Positions 7,374 through 37,870 of a stretch of 64,000 nt of DNA are shown one piece after another; position 1 is the first letter of the stretch; each line of letters opens with the position of its first letter. The stretch comes from a virus: positions 1 to 64,000 of IMG/VR virus record IMGVR_UViG_3300036879_000022. One strand, 5' to 3'. The translations under genes and the position numbers were made by a program. A model generated the notes under the pieces. The model was not told where the DNA came from. It worked only from the letters and a program-made list of their open reading frames with translations, and did no database searches.

Positions 7374-7449
7374 TGGCTCAGGGAGTAGGGCTCGAACCTA
7401 CGACCTACGCTTTAACAGAGCGCCGCTCTACCATCTGAGCTATCCCCAA
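7374..7449 (-). tRNA. tRNA-Asn(GTT)
   Basis: Cloverleaf; anticodon loop CT-GTT-AA; encoded CCA. Confidence 0.9.
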
Positions 7450-7455
7450 AAACCA

Positions 7456-7530
7456 TGGTGCCCGTGGCTGGTATCGAACCAGCGACCTGACGGTTATCAA
7501 CCGCCCGCTCTACCACTGAGCTACACGGGG
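7456..7530 (-). tRNA. tRNA-Ile(GAT)
   Basis: Cloverleaf; loop TT-GAT-AA; CCA. Confidence 0.9.
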
Positions 7531-7568
7531 CATTCGCACTAGCAAGCGGTCGCGCGCTTGCACTAATT

Positions 7569-7645
7569 TGGTGGACCGGGTCGGCTTCGAACCGACGACC
7601 CCCTGCTTGCAAAACAGGCGCTCTCCCAACTGAGCTACGCGGCCC
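7569..7645 (-). tRNA. tRNA-Ala(TGC)
   Basis: Loop TT-TGC-AA; G3:U70; CCA; one bulged base in the acceptor stem. Confidence 0.9.
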
Positions 7646-7685
7646 GCTGTCCCGAATTTGTATACAAATTTGGGACAGAAACTTT

Positions 7686-7763
7686 TGGTGACGGACGCTT
7701 GGATTTGAACCAAGGACCCTCGGGTTATGAGCCCGACGCTCTACCGGGCTGAGCTACGCCGTC
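7686..7763 (-). tRNA. tRNA-Met(CAT)
   Basis: Loop CT-CAT-AA; GGG/CCC anticodon stem; CCA. Confidence 0.88.
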
Positions 7764-7764
7764 A

Positions 7765-7840
7765 TGGTGCGAAGAGATGGGGTTGAACCACCGACGCGCA
7801 CGCTTTCAACGTGCCGCTCTACCAACTGAGCTATCTTCGC
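7765..7840 (-). tRNA. tRNA-Phe(GAA)
   Basis: Loop TT-GAA-AG; CCA. Confidence 0.92.
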
Positions 7841-7855
7841 GAAATCTAAAAGCCG

Positions 7856-7933
7856 TGGTGCCGCTGGAATGGATTTGAACCTTCGACCTACCCCTTACGA
7901 AAGGATTGCTCTACCGGGCTGAGCTACAGCGAC
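7856..7933 (-). tRNA. tRNA-Thr(CGT)
   Basis: Loop TT-CGT-AA; CCA. Confidence 0.88.
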
Positions 7934-7934
7934 A

Positions 7935-8008
7935 TGGCACGGGCTCTAGGATTTGAACCTAGACTGACGGGTTCAGAGCCCGTTGGGCTACCGTTACACC
8001 AAACCCGC
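7935..8008 (-). tRNA. tRNA-Gln(CTG)
   Basis: Loop CT-CTG-AA; CCA. Confidence 0.9.
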
Positions 8009-8009
8009 A

Positions 8010-8083
8010 TGGCACAGGATCAAGGTTTCGAACCTTGGCCAGCGGTTTTGGAGACCGCCGTGCTACCGCTACACCAATCCTGT
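8010..8083 (-). tRNA. tRNA-Trp(CCA)
   Basis: Loop CT-CCA-AA; G73; CCA. Confidence 0.92.
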
Positions 8084-8141
8084 AAAGATCAGGACCAGCT
8101 TTGCGATTGCGCGGCGGCGATAATAGTCGATGTGGGATTAT

Positions 8142-8220
8142 TGGTCAGGGCGGCAGGATTTGAACCTGCGTTCTTCTGGGTCCGGGCCAGACGGGGACAG
8201 CCAAACTCCCCCACGCCCTG
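8142..8220 (-). tRNA. tRNA-Pro(CGG)
   Basis: C1-G72, A73; loop CC-CGG-AC (C33 is unusual); CCA. Confidence 0.8.
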
Positions 8221-29154: not shown

Positions 29155-29312
29155 TGGCGCGCTGGGGAGGACCGGACCCTCCATCCATACTCTACGTTTC
29201 GATTTCGTCTCGGCGTCCCGGCCACTTCCGTCAGGTCTCGCCTGATGGCGTTGTGTGGCGACGACTACTGACTACCTCGTAAAGTCGCTCTGTCTGTTTG
29301 AGCTACCAGCGC
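29155..29312 (-). ncRNA. tRNA-like RNA with ~80-nt insertion in place of the anticodon loop
   Basis: GCGCTGG/CCAGCGC acceptor + G-CCA; GCTC/GAGC D stem; ACTTTACG/CGTAGAGT stem; GGAGG/CCTCC T stem. Confidence 0.7.
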
Positions 29313-29322
29313 AAATTTGGTT

Positions 29323-29397
29323 TGGAGGATCAGGCGGGTGCTTCCCCCACTCATACGAGTTTTGCAGACCCGCGCGTTCGTGTTTCGCCACCGACCC
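29323..29397 (-). tRNA. non-canonical tRNA-Cys(GCA)
   Basis: GGGTCGG/CTGATCC acceptor, U73, CCA; loop CT-GCA-AA; deviant D and T loops. Confidence 0.7.
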
Positions 29398-33658: not shown

Positions 33659-36013
33659 ATGATTTTTGATAGCTTGGCGCTCGCGCTCGCATACCTTGAT
33701 CGGCATATGTATTCGCGATATCTTTTCCCGATCGCCGCAGGCAAAAAGTTTCCGCCGTGCCTCAAAGACAATCTCGACGGCAACTGTTCGAACGACCCAA
33801 AGCAGATCATCGCGTGGGCCAAGCAGTTTCCCGGCTGCAACTGGGGCGTAGCGCACCGCAAGTCACGCTTGATGGTCGTGGACGTTGACACCAACAAAGC
33901 CAAGGGTAAGGTCGGCGACGAAACATTCGCCTATCTCGACATGCTGTACGGCTGGCCCGAAACCGAGCGCACGGGGACGCCGTCCGGCGGCTGGCATTTG
34001 ATCTACGAGGGCTGGGACGACGCAAACCATCCTGCGCACATCTTCGCGCTCGGCGAGAACGGCATCGGCAAAGATATTGATAGCCCGAACTACTCGCTGA
34101 TCCCCGGGTGCCGCTTTGCTGACGGCACGAGCTACACCACGAATGACGCCGACGCCGTCGCGTGCCCGGAATGGATTTACGACACCATCAAAAGCTCCAA
34201 GACCAAGTCGCGTATCACCGACGCGGGCGAGGTCGTTGTCGAGCTTGATCAGCAAGCGAACATCGATATCGCAATCGACTTTTTGCAGGATGATGCAGTC
34301 CCGGCCATCGAAGGGTCGGGCGGCGACTTCAATACCCTGAAGACCGCGATGTACCTCAAGGACCTCGGCATCTCGCCGACGCTGTCCGTCGATCTCTTGA
34401 ACGAATACTACAATCCCCGCTGCGTGCCGCCGTGGGATCGCGATGATCTGGAGCGCAAGGTTGAGAACGCCTTCGCCTACTCCAGCCTCTCGAAGGCCGG
34501 CGGCAAAACCGCCGAGGCCGACTTCGCCGATGACGCGCCCGAGCCAATCACGCGGAAGGGCACCTACAATATCGAGACCAAGCAATACGAGTTCAAGCCC
34601 AGTGCCGATCCGGACACCGCCAAAGAGAACCGGGAAGCCGCGCGAAAGGGGGTCGCTGCTCTTACGCCAGAGCAACGAGAGCGATTTCTGAAGATGACCG
34701 AACTCATCAATGAGTGGGTATGGGTCGGTGGCCTCAAGCGGTTCATTGAAAAGGTAGACACCCGGCGTCTCTGGGACAAGGAAGCCTTCAACAGCCAGTA
34801 CAACAACATTCTCGGCGAGAAGGCCACCAAAAATATCTCCGACGTTCTGCTCCGCAAAAAGAAAGGCACGATCGCCCGCTTCAAAGAGATCGCGTACAAG
34901 CCCGGGCTAGGGCAGAGGATCAGCGGCGAGGTCTTCAACGTCTATCTGCCCTCGGACGTGCTCCCGGTGGAGGGCGATGTCTCGTGGTGGGATGATCATC
35001 TCGAATACCTCTTCCCGATTGAAGAGGATCGCGTGATGGTCCTCAATTGGATGGCTTGGCTACTCCAGAACATGGCGACCAAGCCAAAGCACGCGTTGCT
35101 GATCCAAGGCGATGATCAGGGTACGGGCAAGAGTTTTCTTGTCGAGATGCTCGGCCGTATCCTCGGCCAGCGCAACGTCTCGAACATCAATCAGACCGAT
35201 TTGCACGGCGACTTCAATGGATGGGCTCAGCACTCGAAGCTGCTCGTCATCGAAGAGCTGCGCGCGATCGATAAGACCGAGGTCGCCAACAAGCTGCATC
35301 CGTTGATCACGCAAGACATGATCAGCGTCAACGAAAAGAACCTGCCCCGGCGCGATGTTGAAAACTGTTTCGGTATCTTCGCGATGTCAAACCATGAGGC
35401 AGCCCTCAATCTCGACGACAAGGACCGGCGCTATCTCGTCATCAACACGAAGGCGACACCGCGTTACGGGAAGGGCTCGCCGGCCTCGGTCGCATACTAT
35501 ACCGACCTCTACGTCACGAAGCTCAATGACCCGGCGGCCGTCGCGGCCGTCGCATTCAAGCTCCAGAACTGGGACTACGGCGAGTACAGCGGCGCGGCAG
35601 CCGCGCCCGCTACGTCGGCCAAGACTTCGATGATCACGGCCGGTCAGAGCGATCTCGAACATTGGATGGATGAGAACCGCGACAAATTCCCGTTGAATGG
35701 TCGGGTCGTCGCGGTCAGCGATATCATCTTGGTCTTGCCAAAACGTCTGGAGGGCCGAAGCCCGCGCCTGCATGCGTCCATCAAGGGCATCTTGATGCGG
35801 AGGTTCGGCGCCGAAGAGGTCGGACAGGCCACGCTCTCCGATGGCGAGCGTCCGCGTCTGTACGCGATCAACGGCAAAGCAGGTATCCTGAAGAACCTCT
35901 CGCCCAAGGCAATCGGCACGATCTACGAGACCGACAGGGCGAAGGCGGGCAAGGGCCAGCCTCTCGACGATGACGCGACCGAAGAGTTCGGCGAACCCAA
36001 CAATATAGCTTGA
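33659..36013 (+). CDS. primase-polymerase (Prim-Pol) fused to SF3-type helicase (DUF5906-like)
   Basis: NWGV..LMVVDVD, TPSGGWHLIY; GDDQGTGKS Walker A, IEE, NEKN, RRYLV. Confidence 0.93.
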   Translation: MIFDSLALALAYLDRHMYSRYLFPIAAGKKFPPCLKDNLDGNCSNDPKQIIAWAKQFPGCNWGVAHRKSRLMVVDVDTNKAKGKVGDETFAYLDMLYGWPETERTGTPSGGWHLIYEGWDDANHPAHIFALGENGIGKDIDSPNYSLIPGCRFADGTSYTTNDADAVACPEWIYDTIKSSKTKSRITDAGEVVVELDQQANIDIAIDFLQDDAVPAIEGSGGDFNTLKTAMYLKDLGISPTLSVDLLNEYYNPRCVPPWDRDDLERKVENAFAYSSLSKAGGKTAEADFADDAPEPITRKGTYNIETKQYEFKPSADPDTAKENREAARKGVAALTPEQRERFLKMTELINEWVWVGGLKRFIEKVDTRRLWDKEAFNSQYNNILGEKATKNISDVLLRKKKGTIARFKEIAYKPGLGQRISGEVFNVYLPSDVLPVEGDVSWWDDHLEYLFPIEEDRVMVLNWMAWLLQNMATKPKHALLIQGDDQGTGKSFLVEMLGRILGQRNVSNINQTDLHGDFNGWAQHSKLLVIEELRAIDKTEVANKLHPLITQDMISVNEKNLPRRDVENCFGIFAMSNHEAALNLDDKDRRYLVINTKATPRYGKGSPASVAYYTDLYVTKLNDPAAVAAVAFKLQNWDYGEYSGAAAAPATSAKTSMITAGQSDLEHWMDENRDKFPLNGRVVAVSDIILVLPKRLEGRSPRLHASIKGILMRRFGAEEVGQATLSDGERPRLYAINGKAGILKNLSPKAIGTIYETDRAKAGKGQPLDDDATEEFGEPNNIA

Positions 36014-36038
36014 AACAGGTAGCTGCCTATGGTAGACG
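36010..36038 (+). promoter_or_regulatory. promoter positioned to initiate at tRNA-Gly position 1
   Basis: TTGAAA-N17-TAGACG. The same -10 hexamer occurs upstream of the primase and of 51179. Confidence 0.6.
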
Positions 36039-36733
36039 AAGTTCGCGACTGTAGCTCAATGTTAGAGCACCCCGGGTCCACTGGGGAAGATGGCGGTGCA
36101 ATTCCGACCCGGTCGCTCCATATCAAACAAATCCCCGTTGCCCAAGCCCGTGCGTTCATCAAGATGTGGCACAGTCGTTTGCCCAATTGCGATGGGCCTT
36201 TCAAGATCGCGTTTGGGGCGTTCGATCAGGGCGGCTACCTCATGGCGGCTGCACTCTGGCATAACTGCTCAGCGCGAAACCTCCCGCAAGACTGGACTGA
36301 GTTGCGGCGCATGGCTGTCGCCAGCATGTACGCGCCACCGAATACGGCGTCCATCATGATCGGCCAAATGGTCAGATGGTTCAAGAGAGAAGGCAAAGCG
36401 ACAACGCTCGTCTCTTATCAGGACCTCGGTGAAGGCGCCCCTAACTCAGTAGGGTTCGTCAAGCATACCGGCACGATCTACAAAGCAACTAATTGGACCC
36501 CGGTAGCGATCAGCCGTCCGCGTCTTCGAACCCGCACAGTAGCGGATCAAGATTGGGTCAAGAATGGTCGGAAGGTGTACCGCCGTAATGACAAAAACCT
36601 CACGCCGGAGGGGACGACCGACGCTATCGCATCCGCGAAAGTCCGTTGGCAGTACAGCTTGCGAGGCGAGAAGTTCACTGCCCTGACCCCGGAGCAGATC
36701 GAGGCCGCCCGAAGGATGAAGCCGACCAAATAG
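36029..36733 (+). CDS. Mom-like adenine modification enzyme (GNAT fold)
   Basis: ARAFIKMWHSRLP, ELRRMAV, PNTAS, LVSYQD, HTGTIYKATNW motifs of the Mu Mom family; start codon uncertain. Confidence 0.8.
   Translation: MVDEVRDCSSMLEHPGSTGEDGGAIPTRSLHIKQIPVAQARAFIKMWHSRLPNCDGPFKIAFGAFDQGGYLMAAALWHNCSARNLPQDWTELRRMAVASMYAPPNTASIMIGQMVRWFKREGKATTLVSYQDLGEGAPNSVGFVKHTGTIYKATNWTPVAISRPRLRTRTVADQDWVKNGRKVYRRNDKNLTPEGTTDAIASAKVRWQYSLRGEKFTALTPEQIEAARRMKPTK
36045..36120 (+). tRNA. non-canonical tRNA-Gly(TCC) embedded in the mom-like ORF
   Basis: 76 nt; GCGACTG/CGGTCGC acceptor, U73, CCA; GCTC/GAGC D stem; CCCCG/TGGGG anticodon stem with TCC; T loop TGCAATT. Confidence 0.85.
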
Positions 36734-36741
36734 TTAACATC

Positions 36742-36797
36742 CCGCCGGCGAAAAAGTCGCTCGCCGGCGAAAATAACGCTTGACGCTCGCCGGCGAA
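36742..36797. repeat. three (T)CGCCGGCGA(A) palindromes over a promoter
   Basis: Copies at ~36742, 36761 and 36787 flanking TTGACG (36780). Confidence 0.8.
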
Positions 36798-36871
36798 CGC
36801 GTGTATGGGTATTCTCATGAGGCAACCCCACGCCTACGTGGGACCCTCTCAAAAAGAGAAAGTCCCTCAAG

Positions 36872-37870
36872 ATGACAGTACGTGTTGTTCAGGCCAAGTG
36901 GTCTAAGAAACAGATGCTCGCCCTCCCGGAGTGGGAAGGTCAGCGCGATACCGACAAGCGGGTTGCGAAGTACCTCGCGCGCAAGGATTTTGATGCGACG
37001 AACGCAACCATCAAGACTGGATGGGCGACCGTGGTCGTAGGCGGCGAAGAGAGCCGGATTAACGGCAACACTCGCGCGCACGTCATGAACCATATGCCTC
37101 TCGACGAAGCCGAGATGACGGTACGGCGCAAGGACTTCGCCAAGCACTTCCCCGAAGAAGTGCTCGGCGACAAGTACATTTGCTCAACGAAGGAGGAAGC
37201 TCAGGAAATGTATAACAGCATTGACAACACTTCTTCGAGCAAGGGCGCAGCGGACAAGCTGACTTCTGCATTCAAGGCTTGCGGAGTTGGCGTGCGGTCG
37301 AAGATGTACAGGTCAGGGCGCGGTACGTCCGGTCTTGCTCTCGCATGGCGGGCGTTACTCGGTCAGGCTTCCAATTCCGCCTGTTGGCGGACCGAGACCA
37401 TGGTCACTGAGTTCATTCATGAGCTTCGGCTTTTGGATAAGCTCATGTCCGACAATAACGTTCCGGCCAATAGCCGGGTCGTATCCTATCCCGGCTTTCA
37501 GATGGCCGTGCTGCTCACGCTCTACCGCGCTCGTTTAACCCCGCACAAGCGGGGCGATGGCGAGAGCGTTGATGAGGTCTACAAGTTCTGGGACACCGTC
37601 ATCAAGTACGAAGGGGAGATTATCGTCGCCGGGAGCGATCTCGTGTCGAAGTCCCCCGTGATCAAGATGTGGACGATGGTCAACGACGATGTTCTTGCTG
37701 CGTCCGACGACAAGACACAGTCGCGGGAGACGTGGTATGAGGTCGGAGCCAAGGCGCTCAGCCTCTTCTTGCGCCGCCGTGAGGCGTCAGTTGACAGGCC
37801 GTCCCATAAGAAGGTGGTTATCGAAACCTTCTTCCCCTGTCTCGTGGAAGCTCAGGCCGAAGCGGCCTGA
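36872..37870 (+). CDS. hypothetical protein, possible ParB/Srx-like N-terminal domain
   Basis: QRDT...RINGNTRAH resembles the ParB-type DGxxR box. Confidence 0.6.
   Translation: MTVRVVQAKWSKKQMLALPEWEGQRDTDKRVAKYLARKDFDATNATIKTGWATVVVGGEESRINGNTRAHVMNHMPLDEAEMTVRRKDFAKHFPEEVLGDKYICSTKEEAQEMYNSIDNTSSSKGAADKLTSAFKACGVGVRSKMYRSGRGTSGLALAWRALLGQASNSACWRTETMVTEFIHELRLLDKLMSDNNVPANSRVVSYPGFQMAVLLTLYRARLTPHKRGDGESVDEVYKFWDTVIKYEGEIIVAGSDLVSKSPVIKMWTMVNDDVLAASDDKTQSRETWYEVGAKALSLFLRRREASVDRPSHKKVVIETFFPCLVEAQAEAA

What the first reader, a model, noticed from the sequence alone, without database searches (positions are those of the whole stretch)
36010..36733. Mom-like DNA-modifying enzyme carrying its own non-ribosomal tRNA-Gly inside its 5' end
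Seen: 36045-36120 folds into a 76-nt cloverleaf with encoded CCA and is read in frame as RDCSSMLEHPGSTGEDGGAIPTRSLH of the mom-like ORF. It keeps the bacterial GlyRS identity set: G1-C72, C2-G71, G3-C70, U73 and anticodon UCC. It has lost translation features: D loop AAUGUUA lacks G18G19, T loop UGCAAUU replaces UUC, there is a bulged A in the T stem where EF-Tu binds, and G33 replaces U33. A TTGAAA-N17-TAGACG promoter would start transcription almost exactly at G1. Established: staphylococcal non-proteinogenic tRNA-Gly used by Fem transferases show the same loss of D-loop GG and a GUGC T loop. Mu Mom makes N6-carbamoylmethyl-adenine, a glycine-like adduct. I recall recent work reporting Gly-tRNA as the Mom donor; this should be verified. 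Inference: this is a two-part anti-restriction module in which the phage supplies a dedicated EF-Tu-evading glycyl carrier for its DNA modifier. Because the RNA overlaps the ORF, maturing the CCA end would cut the mRNA, possibly acting as a switch. No ATG follows the CCA before the conserved N-terminus, so translation must run through the tRNA (ATG 36029 or the D-loop ATG 36059).
Basis: partly seen in the sequence, partly recalled or inferred. Interest (0 to 1): 0.95.

Follow-up and report, generated by a model that had tools for sequence, protein, structure and literature searches.

The report
Glycine tRNA nested in Mom gene
The first codons of this peat phage's Mom-type DNA-disguising gene also spell a conserved but deformed glycine tRNA, most likely the enzyme's own glycine carrier and not a tRNA for making protein; nobody has tested this at the bench.

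Summary
Confirmed. 36045-36120 (+) is a 76-nt cloverleaf that ARAGORN calls tRNA-Gly(UCC). It lies in frame inside ORF 36029-36733, a Pfam Mom (PF25680) protein whose Mom domain starts right after the CCA.

It is not chance. A covariance model built from relatives finds the same RNA at the 5' end of 54 of 79 related Mom genes, with 16 of 21 base pairs showing compensatory changes.

A DNA pattern for the odd T arm alone (an extra A in the stem) retrieved 80 viral loci, and 74 carry a Mom gene: 33 with the RNA 5' of it, 39 with it 3', 2 on the opposite strand. The same pattern without the extra A gave 1 of 80.

The family keeps the glycine-charging marks (G1-C72, C2-G71, U73, C35, C36, mostly CCA). 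It loses decoding parts: 6- or 8-nt anticodon loops, some members without a D arm, and UGC T loops.

Mu Mom is published to take glycine from Gly-tRNAGly. The best reading (0.7) is therefore a private, non-translational glycyl carrier.

Charging, EF-Tu evasion and excision are untested. The proposed promoter is not supported.

A mom-embedded tRNA-Gly-like locus was noted in Dehalococcoides islands in 2011, without a function. This scan has found the Mom-tRNA pairing before on other DNA.

The parts
36045..36120 (+). 76-nt tRNA-Gly-like RNA gene (UCC at 36077-36079, extra T-stem A at 36107, U73 at 36117, encoded CCA at 36118-36120)
   Evidence: ARAGORN. Family covariance model R1, 77.1 bits. Cloverleaf minimum-energy fold. 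Covariation on relatives.
36029..36733 (+). Mom-family (PF25680) ORF of 234 aa, stop codon included. Codons 6-31 are spelled by the tRNA-like RNA.
   Evidence: ORF list. Pfam Mom E 5.6e-11. PHROG 1384. Family profile against PDB 8bv8 Mu Mom, E 7.8e-4.
36029..36031 (+). Candidate start codon ATG, 16 nt before G1 of the RNA. Only a weak AGG lies 9 nt upstream.
   Evidence: In relatives, an in-frame ATG lies 3-18 nt before G1 in 42 of 47 loci. A core Shine-Dalgarno 4-mer lies before that start in 18 of 46 unique loci, against 24 of 230 control windows. The window itself has none.
36059..36061 (+). Alternative in-frame start codon ATG inside the D loop. The public gene call of 224 aa starts here.
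   Evidence: P0001, 224 aa, 100% identical. The same D-loop ATG is the only in-frame start in L059, L099, L105 and L121.
36116..36526 (+). Stretch matched by the Pfam Mom model (residues 30-166). It begins inside the last bases of the RNA.
33659..36013 (+). Upstream neighbour, a PrimPol + DUF5906 primase/helicase gene that ends 15 nt before ATG 36029. No terminator-like site was called in 35700-37000, so co-transcription is likely.

Best explanation
36045-36120 is a gene for a specialised RNA derived from tRNA-Gly that serves the Mom-family enzyme encoded around it.

Proposed mechanism:
1. The region is transcribed with the mom-like ORF.
2. Transcripts that fold are cut out by the host's tRNA-processing enzymes, RNase P at G1 and 3' trimming to CCA.
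3. Host GlyRS glycylates the RNA through the retained identity set.
4. The extra T-stem nucleotide and the broken elbow and anticodon loop keep it away from EF-Tu and the ribosome.
5. The Mom-like GNAT uses it as glycyl donor to modify adenine in phage DNA, giving protection from restriction.

Transcripts that are translated instead give the enzyme. Translation starts at ATG 36029 (or at the D-loop ATG 36059) and reads through the tRNA sequence.

Shown here: the RNA structure and its covariation; the specific linkage to Mom genes; retention of the charging marks together with loss of decoding features; the conserved reading frame.

Established elsewhere: Mu Mom uses Gly-tRNAGly.

Inferred: excision, charging, EF-Tu evasion and use by this enzyme.
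For: (1) Structure under selection. 16 of 21 pairs carry compensatory changes and 0 of 500 shuffles reach the covariation score. The closest relative with DNA in hand, L373 (61% protein identity), keeps the same GGUCCAC loop, UGC T loop and GG-less D loop, and has a compensatory A4-U69 to G4-C69 change.

(2) Linkage. 54 of 79 viral loci chosen only by Mom protein similarity carry the RNA at 61-96 bits, always on the Mom strand at its 5' end. So do 17 of 37 genome-contig loci.

(3) The reverse test. A DNA pattern for the bulged T arm alone gave 80 loci. 74 hold a Mom core: 33 with the RNA 5', 39 with it 3', 2 on the opposite strand. Of the 6 misses, 4 have the RNA near a contig end and 1 is not a tRNA. 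10 of 10 sampled proteins are Pfam Mom at 100-181 bits. The same pattern without the extra A gave 1 of 80 (Fisher p 7e-37).

(4) Arrangements that only a trans-acting RNA explains. The RNA lies 3' of mom, 0.4-0.7 kb away, on the opposite strand, or 1.9 kb upstream (L076). The cultured Psychrobacter phage vB_PmaS_Y8A has two tandem unannotated copies right after its Mom CDS.

(5) Charging marks kept. Among 107 unique RNAs, 103 start with GCG, 103 have U73 and 81 have an encoded CCA. The NCC anticodon core is visible in nearly all rows. These match the bacterial glycine identity set of U73, G1-C72, C2-G71, C35 and C36 (review PMC9976931, passages).

(6) Decoding parts lost. ARAGORN reports a two-base anticodon in 14 of its 21 Mom-adjacent calls. 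At least six unique members have no D arm, and one has a 3-nt loop without CC. All 12 unique UGC-T-loop members lack GG in the D loop.

(7) The extra T-stem nucleotide is present in 55 of 55 protein-seeded rows and absent from the ordinary tRNAs in the same alignment. It sits between pairs 51-63 and 50-64. These belong to the three T-stem pairs said to set EF-Tu affinity (PMC7826273, passages).

(8) Enzyme. The residues that align with Mu Mom H58, R111, S124, D149 and Y159 are window H48, R94, S108, D132 and Y151 (my mapping of the alignment onto the numbering). They are invariant or nearly so in the family.
Against: - There are no expression, processing or charging data. No RNA run was listed for this phage.
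- The Rfam tRNA score is below the gathering threshold.
- G33, the missing G18G19 and the extra T-stem nucleotide could also weaken RNase P or GlyRS recognition.
- The RNA is dispensable. 25 of 79 close loci lack it at the gene, including the window's nearest IMG/VR relatives L010-L012. Only 3 of 43 mostly distant metagenome loci have it. Three cultured phages with Mom-like genes have none. Mu Mom works with all three host isoacceptors.
- The chemistry of this subfamily is unknown. It is far from Mu Mom (22 bits by profile), and Mu R151 has no clear counterpart.
- Four unique members have A73, and one lacks C35/C36.
- Cutting the RNA out destroys the mRNA, which is a real cost.
Confidence: 0.7

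Rival explanations
1. Cis-acting tRNA mimic. The cloverleaf is never charged. It acts within the mom mRNA as an operator bound by the Mom-like protein or GlyRS for autoregulation, or as an RNase P target that limits expression of a toxic enzyme.
For: In the window's class the RNA is inside the ORF, 3-18 nt after the start codon. A folded acceptor stem would therefore block initiation (inference). Mu mom is known to be under tight translational control by Com (abstract of PMC6483171, seen in the listing). Mom is thought to read the acceptor end of tRNAGly (discussion of PMC13219725), so a mimic could bind it.
Against: 39 of 80 pattern-derived loci have the RNA after the mom gene. Others have it 0.4-0.7 kb away or on the opposite strand, or 1.9 kb away (L076). 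Phage Y8A has two tandem copies after the stop codon. An internal mimic has no need for U73 plus an encoded CCA (81 of 107) or for C35 and C36. L101 has the RNA upstream and then its own Shine-Dalgarno site and ATG.
Confidence: 0.12
2. An ordinary phage tRNA-Gly used in translation, either as a codon supplement or as a replacement for host tRNA hit by defence nucleases, that merely sits beside mom.
For: ARAGORN calls it tRNA-Gly(tcc). The phage carries nine other tRNAs, none of them Gly. Some family members have a canonical 7-nt UUUCCGA loop, for example L044.
Against: Mom is present in 74 of 80 loci with the bulged T arm, against 1 of 80 without the bulge. The family has non-canonical anticodon loops, members without a D arm, and an extra T-stem nucleotite in all members. 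The window RNA has G33 and no G18G19. It lies 28 kb from the phage's tRNA cluster.
Confidence: 0.04
3. The overlap is a gene-calling artefact. The RNA is a separate upstream gene, and the Mom-like protein starts after the CCA at a non-canonical codon (such as ATC 36122) or at ATG 36164. The tRNA sequence is then never translated. This rivals only the 'translated through' part of the reading.
For: The frame that starts at tRNA position 3 is open in 27 of 37 unique 3'-class RNAs, where no N-terminus needs it, so openness is partly intrinsic. 20 of 47 relatives have a TTG, GTG or ATG within 12 nt after the RNA (my count). The window has no core Shine-Dalgarno 4-mer before ATG 36029. Close relatives L010-L012 start with M right at the domain.
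Against: The Mom frame equals the same tRNA frame in 47 of 47 loci scored, and in the 8 others by the printed translations. It also does so in 27 of 28 adjacent pattern-derived loci. Spacers of 46, 52, 61 and 64 nt differ by multiples of three. That frame is open in 61 of 62 unique 5'-class RNAs against 27 of 37 in the 3' class (p 1.8e-4). 42 of 47 loci have an in-frame ATG 3-18 nt before G1, with a roughly fourfold Shine-Dalgarno enrichment. 27 of 47 have no canonical start soon after the RNA. Starting at 36164 would remove the residues matched to Pfam positions 2-17.
Confidence: 0.15

Closest known systems
Bacteriophage Mu Mom with host Gly-tRNAGly (Silva et al., Nat Commun 2026, PMC13219725; PDB 8bv8)
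   Same: Same Pfam family. Residues aligned to Mu H58, R111, S124, D149 and Y159 are conserved. The published co-substrate is Gly-tRNAGly, which explains why a tRNA-Gly-like gene travels with the enzyme.
   Different: Mu encodes no tRNA and uses all three host isoacceptors. In the parts I read (outline, sections 13 and 14, term searches) the paper does not mention phage-encoded tRNA; 'encoded tRNA' gave 0 hits. The window protein is distant (22 bits by profile only) and its product is unknown.
Non-proteogenic tRNAGly isoacceptors NP1-NP3 of Staphylococcus aureus and S. epidermidis, donors for FmhB/Fem transferases (Rietmeyer et al., NAR 2021, PMC7826273)
   Same: Both are a dedicated glycine tRNA for an aminoacyl-tRNA-dependent transferase outside translation. 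Both have TGC or TGT instead of TTC in the T loop. Poor EF-Tu use is tied to the T stem (passages).
   Different: The staphylococcal tRNAs weaken EF-Tu binding with A-U pairs at 49-65, 50-64 and 51-63. Here the pairs are G-C, with an extra nucleotide in the 3' strand. The paper calls that lineage staphylococcus-only. These are chromosomal genes that serve cell-wall synthesis, not phage genes that serve DNA modification, and they do not overlap an ORF.
76-bp tRNA-Gly-like 'pseudo-tRNA' embedded in the first 150 bp of the mom homologue of Dehalococcoides ssrA genomic islands (McMurdie et al., BMC Genomics 2011, PMC3146451)
   Same: Same anatomy: a complete tRNA-Gly-like cloverleaf with apparent anticodon DCC inside the 5' end of a Mom homologue, conserved in 16 islands and in a deep-sea fosmid (passages).
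   Different: It was reported as an annotation curiosity and primer site, and no function was proposed. Mom's dependence on tRNA was unknown then. It lies in integrative islands of a bacterium, not in a phage. I could not fetch those sequences, so membership in the RNA family modelled here is untested. The supplement figure with the structure was not seen.

Membership tests
Mom family (Pfam PF25680) | Match to the family model above the curated cut-off | tested here: met
   42.9 bits against a cut-off of 27.1, E 5.6e-11, residues 30-166. PHROG 1384 'Mom-like DNA modification protein', E 8.5e-17.
Mom family (Pfam PF25680) | Residues needed for Mu Mom activity (H58, R111, S124, D149, Y159; R151) | tested here: met
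   The profile-to-8bv8 alignment, with paper number = chain number + 9 (checked on H58/Y59, W48, D149, R151, Y159 and the S124A position), gives window H48, R94, S108, D132 and Y151. All are invariant or nearly invariant. R151 falls beside a gap and is inconclusive.
Mom family (Pfam PF25680) | HTH-like insertion (Mu residues about 175-209) needed for activity | not tested
   The alignment to 8bv8 ends at chain residue 155.
Mom family (Pfam PF25680) | Transfers glycine from Gly-tRNAGly to N6 of adenine in dsDNA | not testable with these tools
   Needs biochemistry.
tRNA (Rfam RF00005) | Score at or above the gathering threshold | tested here: not met
   27.3 bits against 29.
tRNA (Rfam RF00005) | Four-arm cloverleaf supported by covariation | tested here: met
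Translation-competent elongator tRNA | U33, G18G19, T-loop U54-U55-C56, uninterrupted 5-bp T stem, 7-nt anticodon loop across the family | tested here: not met
   The window has G33, D loop AAUGUUA, T loop UGCAAUU and an extra A at 36107. The family has two-base 'anticodons' in 14 of 21 ARAGORN calls and members without a D arm.
Bacterial tRNAGly (GlyRS substrate) | U73, G1-C72, C2-G71, C35, C36 (review PMC9976931) | tested here: met
   All are present in the window RNA. 103 of 107 unique family members start with GCG and 103 of 107 have U73. Actual charging is not testable here.
Staphylococcal non-proteogenic tRNAGly lineage | A49-U65, U50-A64, A51-U63 T stem; a lineage restricted to staphylococci | tested here: not met
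   The window T stem is GGCGG/CCG-A-CC. It works like this lineage but is not a member.
Mom-embedded tRNA-Gly-like locus of Dehalococcoides ssrA islands | 76-bp tRNA-Gly-like cloverleaf within the first 150 bp of a mom homologue | tested here: met
   36045-36120 lies at ORF bases 17-92. The description is from the paper. Sequence kinship with the Dehalococcoides copies was not tested because those sequences could not be fetched.

The most novel reading that the evidence does not exclude
One transcript has two mutually exclusive products. The start codon sits 3-18 nt before G1, so a ribosome must hold the acceptor stem open in order to initiate. A transcript that is translated makes enzyme. A transcript that folds first is cut by RNase P, which severs the start codon from the ORF and yields the enzyme's co-substrate carrier. 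The overlap would then be a built-in device that sets the ratio (or the timing) of a potentially toxic DNA modifier to its private glycyl donor. The roughly 25 residues spelled by the tRNA would be a tolerated or co-opted N-terminal tail. This would be a protein-coding gene and a functional tRNA-class gene sharing the same bases on the same strand, conserved across a large phage family.
Probability: 0.3. Interest if true: 0.9.

Novelty: new variant of a known kind. Interest (0 to 1): 0.8.

Why it matters
Mom's co-substrate was identified only recently. The published view is that the phage scavenges host Gly-tRNAGly.

If many phages carry a private glycine carrier that is invisible to the ribosome, then:
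- DNA hypermodification is insulated from translation.
- tRNA-like genes that annotation pipelines miss or call pseudo-tRNAs gain a function.
- The extra T-stem nucleotide becomes a natural, testable device for excluding EF-Tu.
- A 15-year-old oddity, the Dehalococcoides mom 'pseudo-tRNA', gets an explanation.

The in-frame overlap of a tRNA-class gene with the ORF it serves is a rare case of same-strand dual coding. It may act as a switch between enzyme and co-substrate.

The cultured Psychrobacter phage vB_PmaS_Y8A and cultured Dehalococcoides strains make all of this testable.

Tried and rejected
Led nowhere or gave nothing:
- blastn of the 3-kb region against phage records found no match.
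- tblastn of the window protein against phage records found only 7 distant records.
- blastn of a typical family RNA against phage records found only a partial tRNA-Ala match.
- Single-sequence phmmer against the PDB did not find Mom. The family profile did.
- RNA evidence: no RNA holder was listed for the window stretch. I therefore did not lay reads.
- The three cultured phages nearest to the window protein (Corynebacterium Stickynote, Bacillus SplendidRed, Staphylococcus PMBT8) have no family RNA within 1.5 kb of their Mom-like genes. Aeromonas PX29 has none. Methylophilales phage Melnitz has only a 29.8-bit hit about 1 kb upstream, in the range of ordinary tRNAs.
- I tried to reach Dehalococcoides genomes through the Chloroflexi MAG behind L344. 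That gave only the MAG itself, with six hits at 42-58 bits that I did not sort, and I stopped there.

Corrected along the way:
- My first Mom profile included the N-terminal residues spelled by the tRNA, so its iterated result could have matched the translated RNA itself. I discarded it and rebuilt the profile from the core columns only. The count was the same, 74 of 80.
- The control T-arm pattern picks up mostly T-arm fragments and few whole tRNAs: ARAGORN called 15 of 80. It therefore controls for T-arm-like DNA in viral contigs, not for whole tRNA-Gly genes.
- The one control locus with Mom (L232) is itself a Mom-adjacent tRNA-Gly-like RNA, with the extra nucleotide shifted.

Considered and rejected:
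- Phage attachment-site remnant. Rejected because the RNA is a full cloverleaf with covariation in all four stems and is always tied to mom.
It was not called and is at odds with the conserved upstream ATG.

Not seen: the supplements of Silva et al. 2026, which include the homologue network, and of McMurdie et al. 2011, which include the structure figure. Either may bear on prior mention of such tRNAs.

Claims that the functional link is not in print rest on searches of the held library, and on term searches within PMC13219725 and PMC7824862.

Full report
**The observation**

Window 36045-36120 (+) reads as a 76-nt cloverleaf.
- The acceptor stem has 7 pairs, beginning G1-C72, C2-G71, G3-C70.
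- The D stem is GCUC/GAGC, with loop AAUGUUA.
- The anticodon stem is CCCCG/UGGGG, with loop GGUCCAC.
- The T stem is GGCGG/CCG-A-CC, with loop UGCAAUU.
- U73 and an encoded CCA follow.

ARAGORN calls it tRNA-Gly(tcc). The Rfam tRNA model gives 27.3 bits, just under its threshold of 29. The minimum-energy fold is exactly this cloverleaf, bulged A included.

The RNA lies in frame inside ORF 36029-36733. This ORF is a Pfam Mom protein: 42.9 bits against a cut-off of 27.1, with the match running from residue 30, the codon before the one that holds C75-A76. PHROGs agrees. The public gene call for this protein (224 aa) starts at the D-loop ATG 36059.

The record is an IMG/VR virus of 84,382 bases, about 80% complete. 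It is seen in peat and permafrost metagenomes. The upstream gene is a PrimPol/DUF5906 primase-helicase.

**The literature claim**

Silva et al. (Nat Commun 2026, PMC13219725; earlier bioRxiv 10.1101/2023.03.24.534169, seen in listing only) show that Mu Mom transfers glycine from Gly-tRNAGly to N6 of adenine in dsDNA, followed by an on-base rearrangement. All three E. coli isoacceptors work. Mischarged tRNAAla does not (abstract, passages, sections 13 and 14).

A profile of the window's family hits the Mu Mom structure 8bv8 (E 7.8e-4). The chain numbering is offset by 9 from the paper's numbering. I checked this on H58/Y59, W48, D149, R151, Y159 and the S124A position. With that offset, Mu H58, R111, S124, D149 and Y159 align with window H48, R94, S108, D132 and Y151. 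All five are invariant or nearly invariant in the family. R151 is unclear.

**A family, not a one-off**

In the alignment of protein homologues, many called ORFs carry an N-terminal '...GGS(I/N)PT..L(H/Q)' extension. This is a translated T arm and acceptor end.

I fetched 79 viral loci by Mom similarity. ARAGORN called an odd tRNA at the 5' end of the Mom match in 21 of them: 14 with a two-base 'anticodon', 5 as Gly(tcc), 1 as Gly(acc) and 1 as Trp(cca).

On 18 distinct sequences the cloverleaf is 92.6% paired, 16 of 21 pairs change on both sides, 0 of 500 shuffles reach the paired percentage or the covariation score, and slid registers pair at only 38-47%.

A covariance model built from these sequences (R1) finds the RNA in 54 of the 79 loci, and in the window, at 61-96 bits. 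It is always on the Mom strand at the gene's 5' end. The ordinary tRNAs matched in these loci and in the window score 16-44 bits. The model also finds the RNA in 17 of 37 Mom loci from genome assemblies, all of them MAGs, and in 3 of 43 mostly distant, short metagenome loci.

The closest relative with DNA in hand is L373 (61% protein identity). It keeps the window's peculiar GGUCCAC loop, UGC T loop and GG-less D loop, and shows a compensatory 4-69 change. These features are therefore maintained and are not decay.

**The reverse test**

All 55 protein-seeded rows have an extra nucleotide in the 3' strand of the T stem. It is A in 53 rows and G in 2. The ordinary tRNAs in the same alignment lack it.

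A Mom profile built without the residues spelled by the tRNA, iterated once, hits 74 of the 80.
- In 33 loci the RNA lies 5' of mom. About 27 of these abut the domain within 4-33 nt, and 6 lie 0.1-0.7 kb away.
- In 39 loci it lies 3' of mom.
- In 2 loci it is on the opposite strand.
- Of the 6 misses, 4 have the RNA within 350 nt of a contig end and 1 is not a tRNA.

Ten of ten sampled proteins are Pfam Mom at 100-181 bits. The same pattern without the extra A gave 1 of 80 (p 7e-37). That one locus is itself a Mom-adjacent tRNA-Gly-like RNA. The control set is mostly T-arm fragments, not whole tRNAs.

In the 3' class the mom stop codon lies 10-22 nt before the RNA, inside it, or beyond it, in which case the ORF reads through the RNA.

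On a FastTree of 135 Mom cores, 5' against 3' placement needs only 2 changes. Presence against absence of the RNA needs 9. The window's nearest IMG/VR relatives, L010-L012, lack it. The tree has few columns and many unresolved forks.

**A cultured example**

Psychrobacter phage vB_PmaS_Y8A (OQ059336.1) has a Mom CDS followed by a 165-nt unannotated gap. The gap holds two tandem family RNAs of 68 and 69 nt. Each has a GCG...CGC-U-CCA acceptor, a bulged T arm with a UGC loop and a long anticodon arm that keeps UCC. Neither has a D arm.

**What is kept and what is lost**

Among 107 unique family RNAs, 103 begin with GCG, 103 have U73 (4 have A73), 81 have an encoded CCA and 105 have A as the extra T-stem nucleotide. 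Most of these were selected by that last feature.

The anticodon core is NCC, with N34 as U, A or C. One lineage (L137/L142) has a 3-nt loop without CC.

The kept positions are the bacterial glycine identity set: U73, G1-C72, C2-G71, C35 and C36. According to the same review, U73 also shields Gly-tRNAGly from D-aminoacyl-tRNA deacylase (PMC9976931, passages).

The lost features are those of decoding.
- Most members have a 6-nt loop, or an 8-nt loop if the closing U-A pair is opened.
- The window has G33.
- At least six unique members have no D arm.
- 12 unique members have a UGC T loop, and all 12 lack GG in the D loop.

Staphylococcal non-proteogenic tRNAGly likewise carry TGC or TGT in the T loop. 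EF-Tu affinity is set by the first three T-stem pairs (PMC7826273, passages). The extra nucleotide here sits among those pairs. EF-Tu exclusion is my inference and is not a result.

**Is the RNA translated through?**

- In all 47 loci that my script scored, the Mom domain is in the frame whose codons start at tRNA positions 3, 6, 9 and so on. The 8 loci where my motif expression failed show Mom in that same frame in the printed translations.
- The distance from the CCA end to the conserved HSRLP motif is 46, 52, 61 or 64 nt. All four differ by multiples of three.
- 42 of 47 loci have an in-frame ATG 3-18 nt before G1, or 44 if GTG is counted. 27 of 47 have no ATG, GTG or TTG within 12 nt after the RNA (my counts).
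- In the pattern-derived set, 27 of 28 adjacent loci share the frame. The exception, L101, has its own GAGGA-ATG after the RNA.
- In L059, L099, L105 and L121 the only in-frame start is the D-loop ATG. In L105 and L121 it is preceded by GGAG or GGAGG inside the acceptor strand.
- That frame is open in 61 of 62 unique 5'-class RNAs, against 27 of 37 in the 3' class (p 1.8e-4, not corrected for kinship).
- A core Shine-Dalgarno 4-mer precedes the upstream start in 18 of 46 unique loci, against 24 of 230 control windows. The window itself has none.

In the window, the next in-frame start after the CCA is ATG 36164. Starting there would delete the residues matched to Pfam positions 2-17. I conclude that the ORF most likely starts before or within the RNA. 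I hold a 0.15 rival that it starts after it.

**Mechanism and rivals**

The best reading (0.7) is a private, non-translational glycyl carrier for the Mom-like enzyme. It would be cut out of the mom transcript and charged by host GlyRS.

The main rival (0.12) is a cis-acting mimic. It is hard to square with copies that lie 3' of mom, apart from it, on the opposite strand or in tandem, and with the retained U73-CCA and C35-C36.

An ordinary translational tRNA (0.04) fails on anatomy and on the 74-of-80 linkage.

The RNA is clearly an accessory. Many Mom genes, Mu's among them, do without it.

The boldest reading that is not excluded (0.3) is that translation and tRNA excision are mutually exclusive fates of one transcript, and that this sets the ratio of enzyme to carrier.

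**Novelty**

The anatomy was noted once before. McMurdie et al. 2011 (PMC3146451) described a 76-bp tRNA-Gly-like 'pseudo-tRNA' within the first 150 bp of the mom homologue of Dehalococcoides ssrA islands and of a deep-sea fosmid, with no function proposed (passages). The lead to that paper came from earlier notes of this scan.

I found no paper that links such RNAs to Mom's dependence on tRNA (searches; term searches; supplements closed).

This scan has noted Mom-tRNA-Gly pairings before on other DNA: 110 notes in at least 81 genomes, several of them on in-frame nesting.

I class it as a new variant of a known kind. The known kinds are dedicated non-proteogenic tRNAGly and tRNA-dependent Mom. 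Interest is 0.8.

**Limits**

There are no RNA data. The hosts are unknown. The counts are not corrected for relatedness.

Noticed in passing
window 7374-8220 (-): Cluster of nine ordinary tRNA genes (Asn, Ile, Ala, Met, Phe, Thr, Gln, Trp, Pro), none of them Gly, 28 kb from the Mom-linked RNA.
   Followed up: no
L361:2638-2705 and 2710-2778 (Psychrobacter phage vB_PmaS_Y8A, OQ059336.1, about 7786-7926 of the record): Two tandem, unannotated tRNA-Gly-like RNAs without a D arm, in the gap between the Mom CDS and the small terminase gene of a cultured phage.
   Followed up: partly
L097, L104, L107, L114, L120, L124, L125, L128, L131, L133, L139, L146, L150, L153-L155, L159, L164: In 18 of the 39 loci with the RNA 3' of mom, the mom ORF has no stop before the RNA and reads through it, ending shortly after it. 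The RNA can therefore be nested in the 3' end of the gene as well.
   Followed up: partly
L137:2333-2403, L142:4479-4549: A 71-nt family member whose anticodon arm ends in a 3-nt loop without CC. If it is charged, its GlyRS cannot be reading C35 and C36.
   Followed up: no
L064, L075, L078, L082, L086-L088, L136: Family members with discriminator A73 instead of U73: 4 unique sequences, with the rows visible. Possibly adaptation to a different host GlyRS or deacylase.
   Followed up: no
L076:2-76: A family RNA (40.3 bits, bulged T arm, UCC) lies 1.9 kb upstream of the Mom match instead of at the gene.
   Followed up: no
L208-L287 (control loci): The canonical T-arm pattern in viral contigs mostly hits isolated T-arm or 3'-end tRNA fragments, not whole tRNAs. 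ARAGORN called 15 of 80. These may be attachment-site remnants.
   Followed up: no
window 29155-29397: Earlier notes of this scan describe two more elbow-less tRNA-like genes here, a Cys(GCA) and an insert-bearing one. ARAGORN did not call either. I did not examine them.
   Followed up: no
window 36872-37870 (+): The ORF just downstream of mom (332 aa) has no Pfam match and only a PHROG of unknown function (phrog_2615, E 4.8e-8). Mom genes elsewhere sit beside ParB-like genes: phage Y8A and the Dehalococcoides islands.
   Followed up: partly
G001 (Chloroflexi MAG behind L344): Six R1 hits at 42-58 bits on six contigs of one 6.1-Mb MAG. I did not sort them into Mom-linked RNAs and ordinary tRNA-Gly genes.
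   Followed up: no
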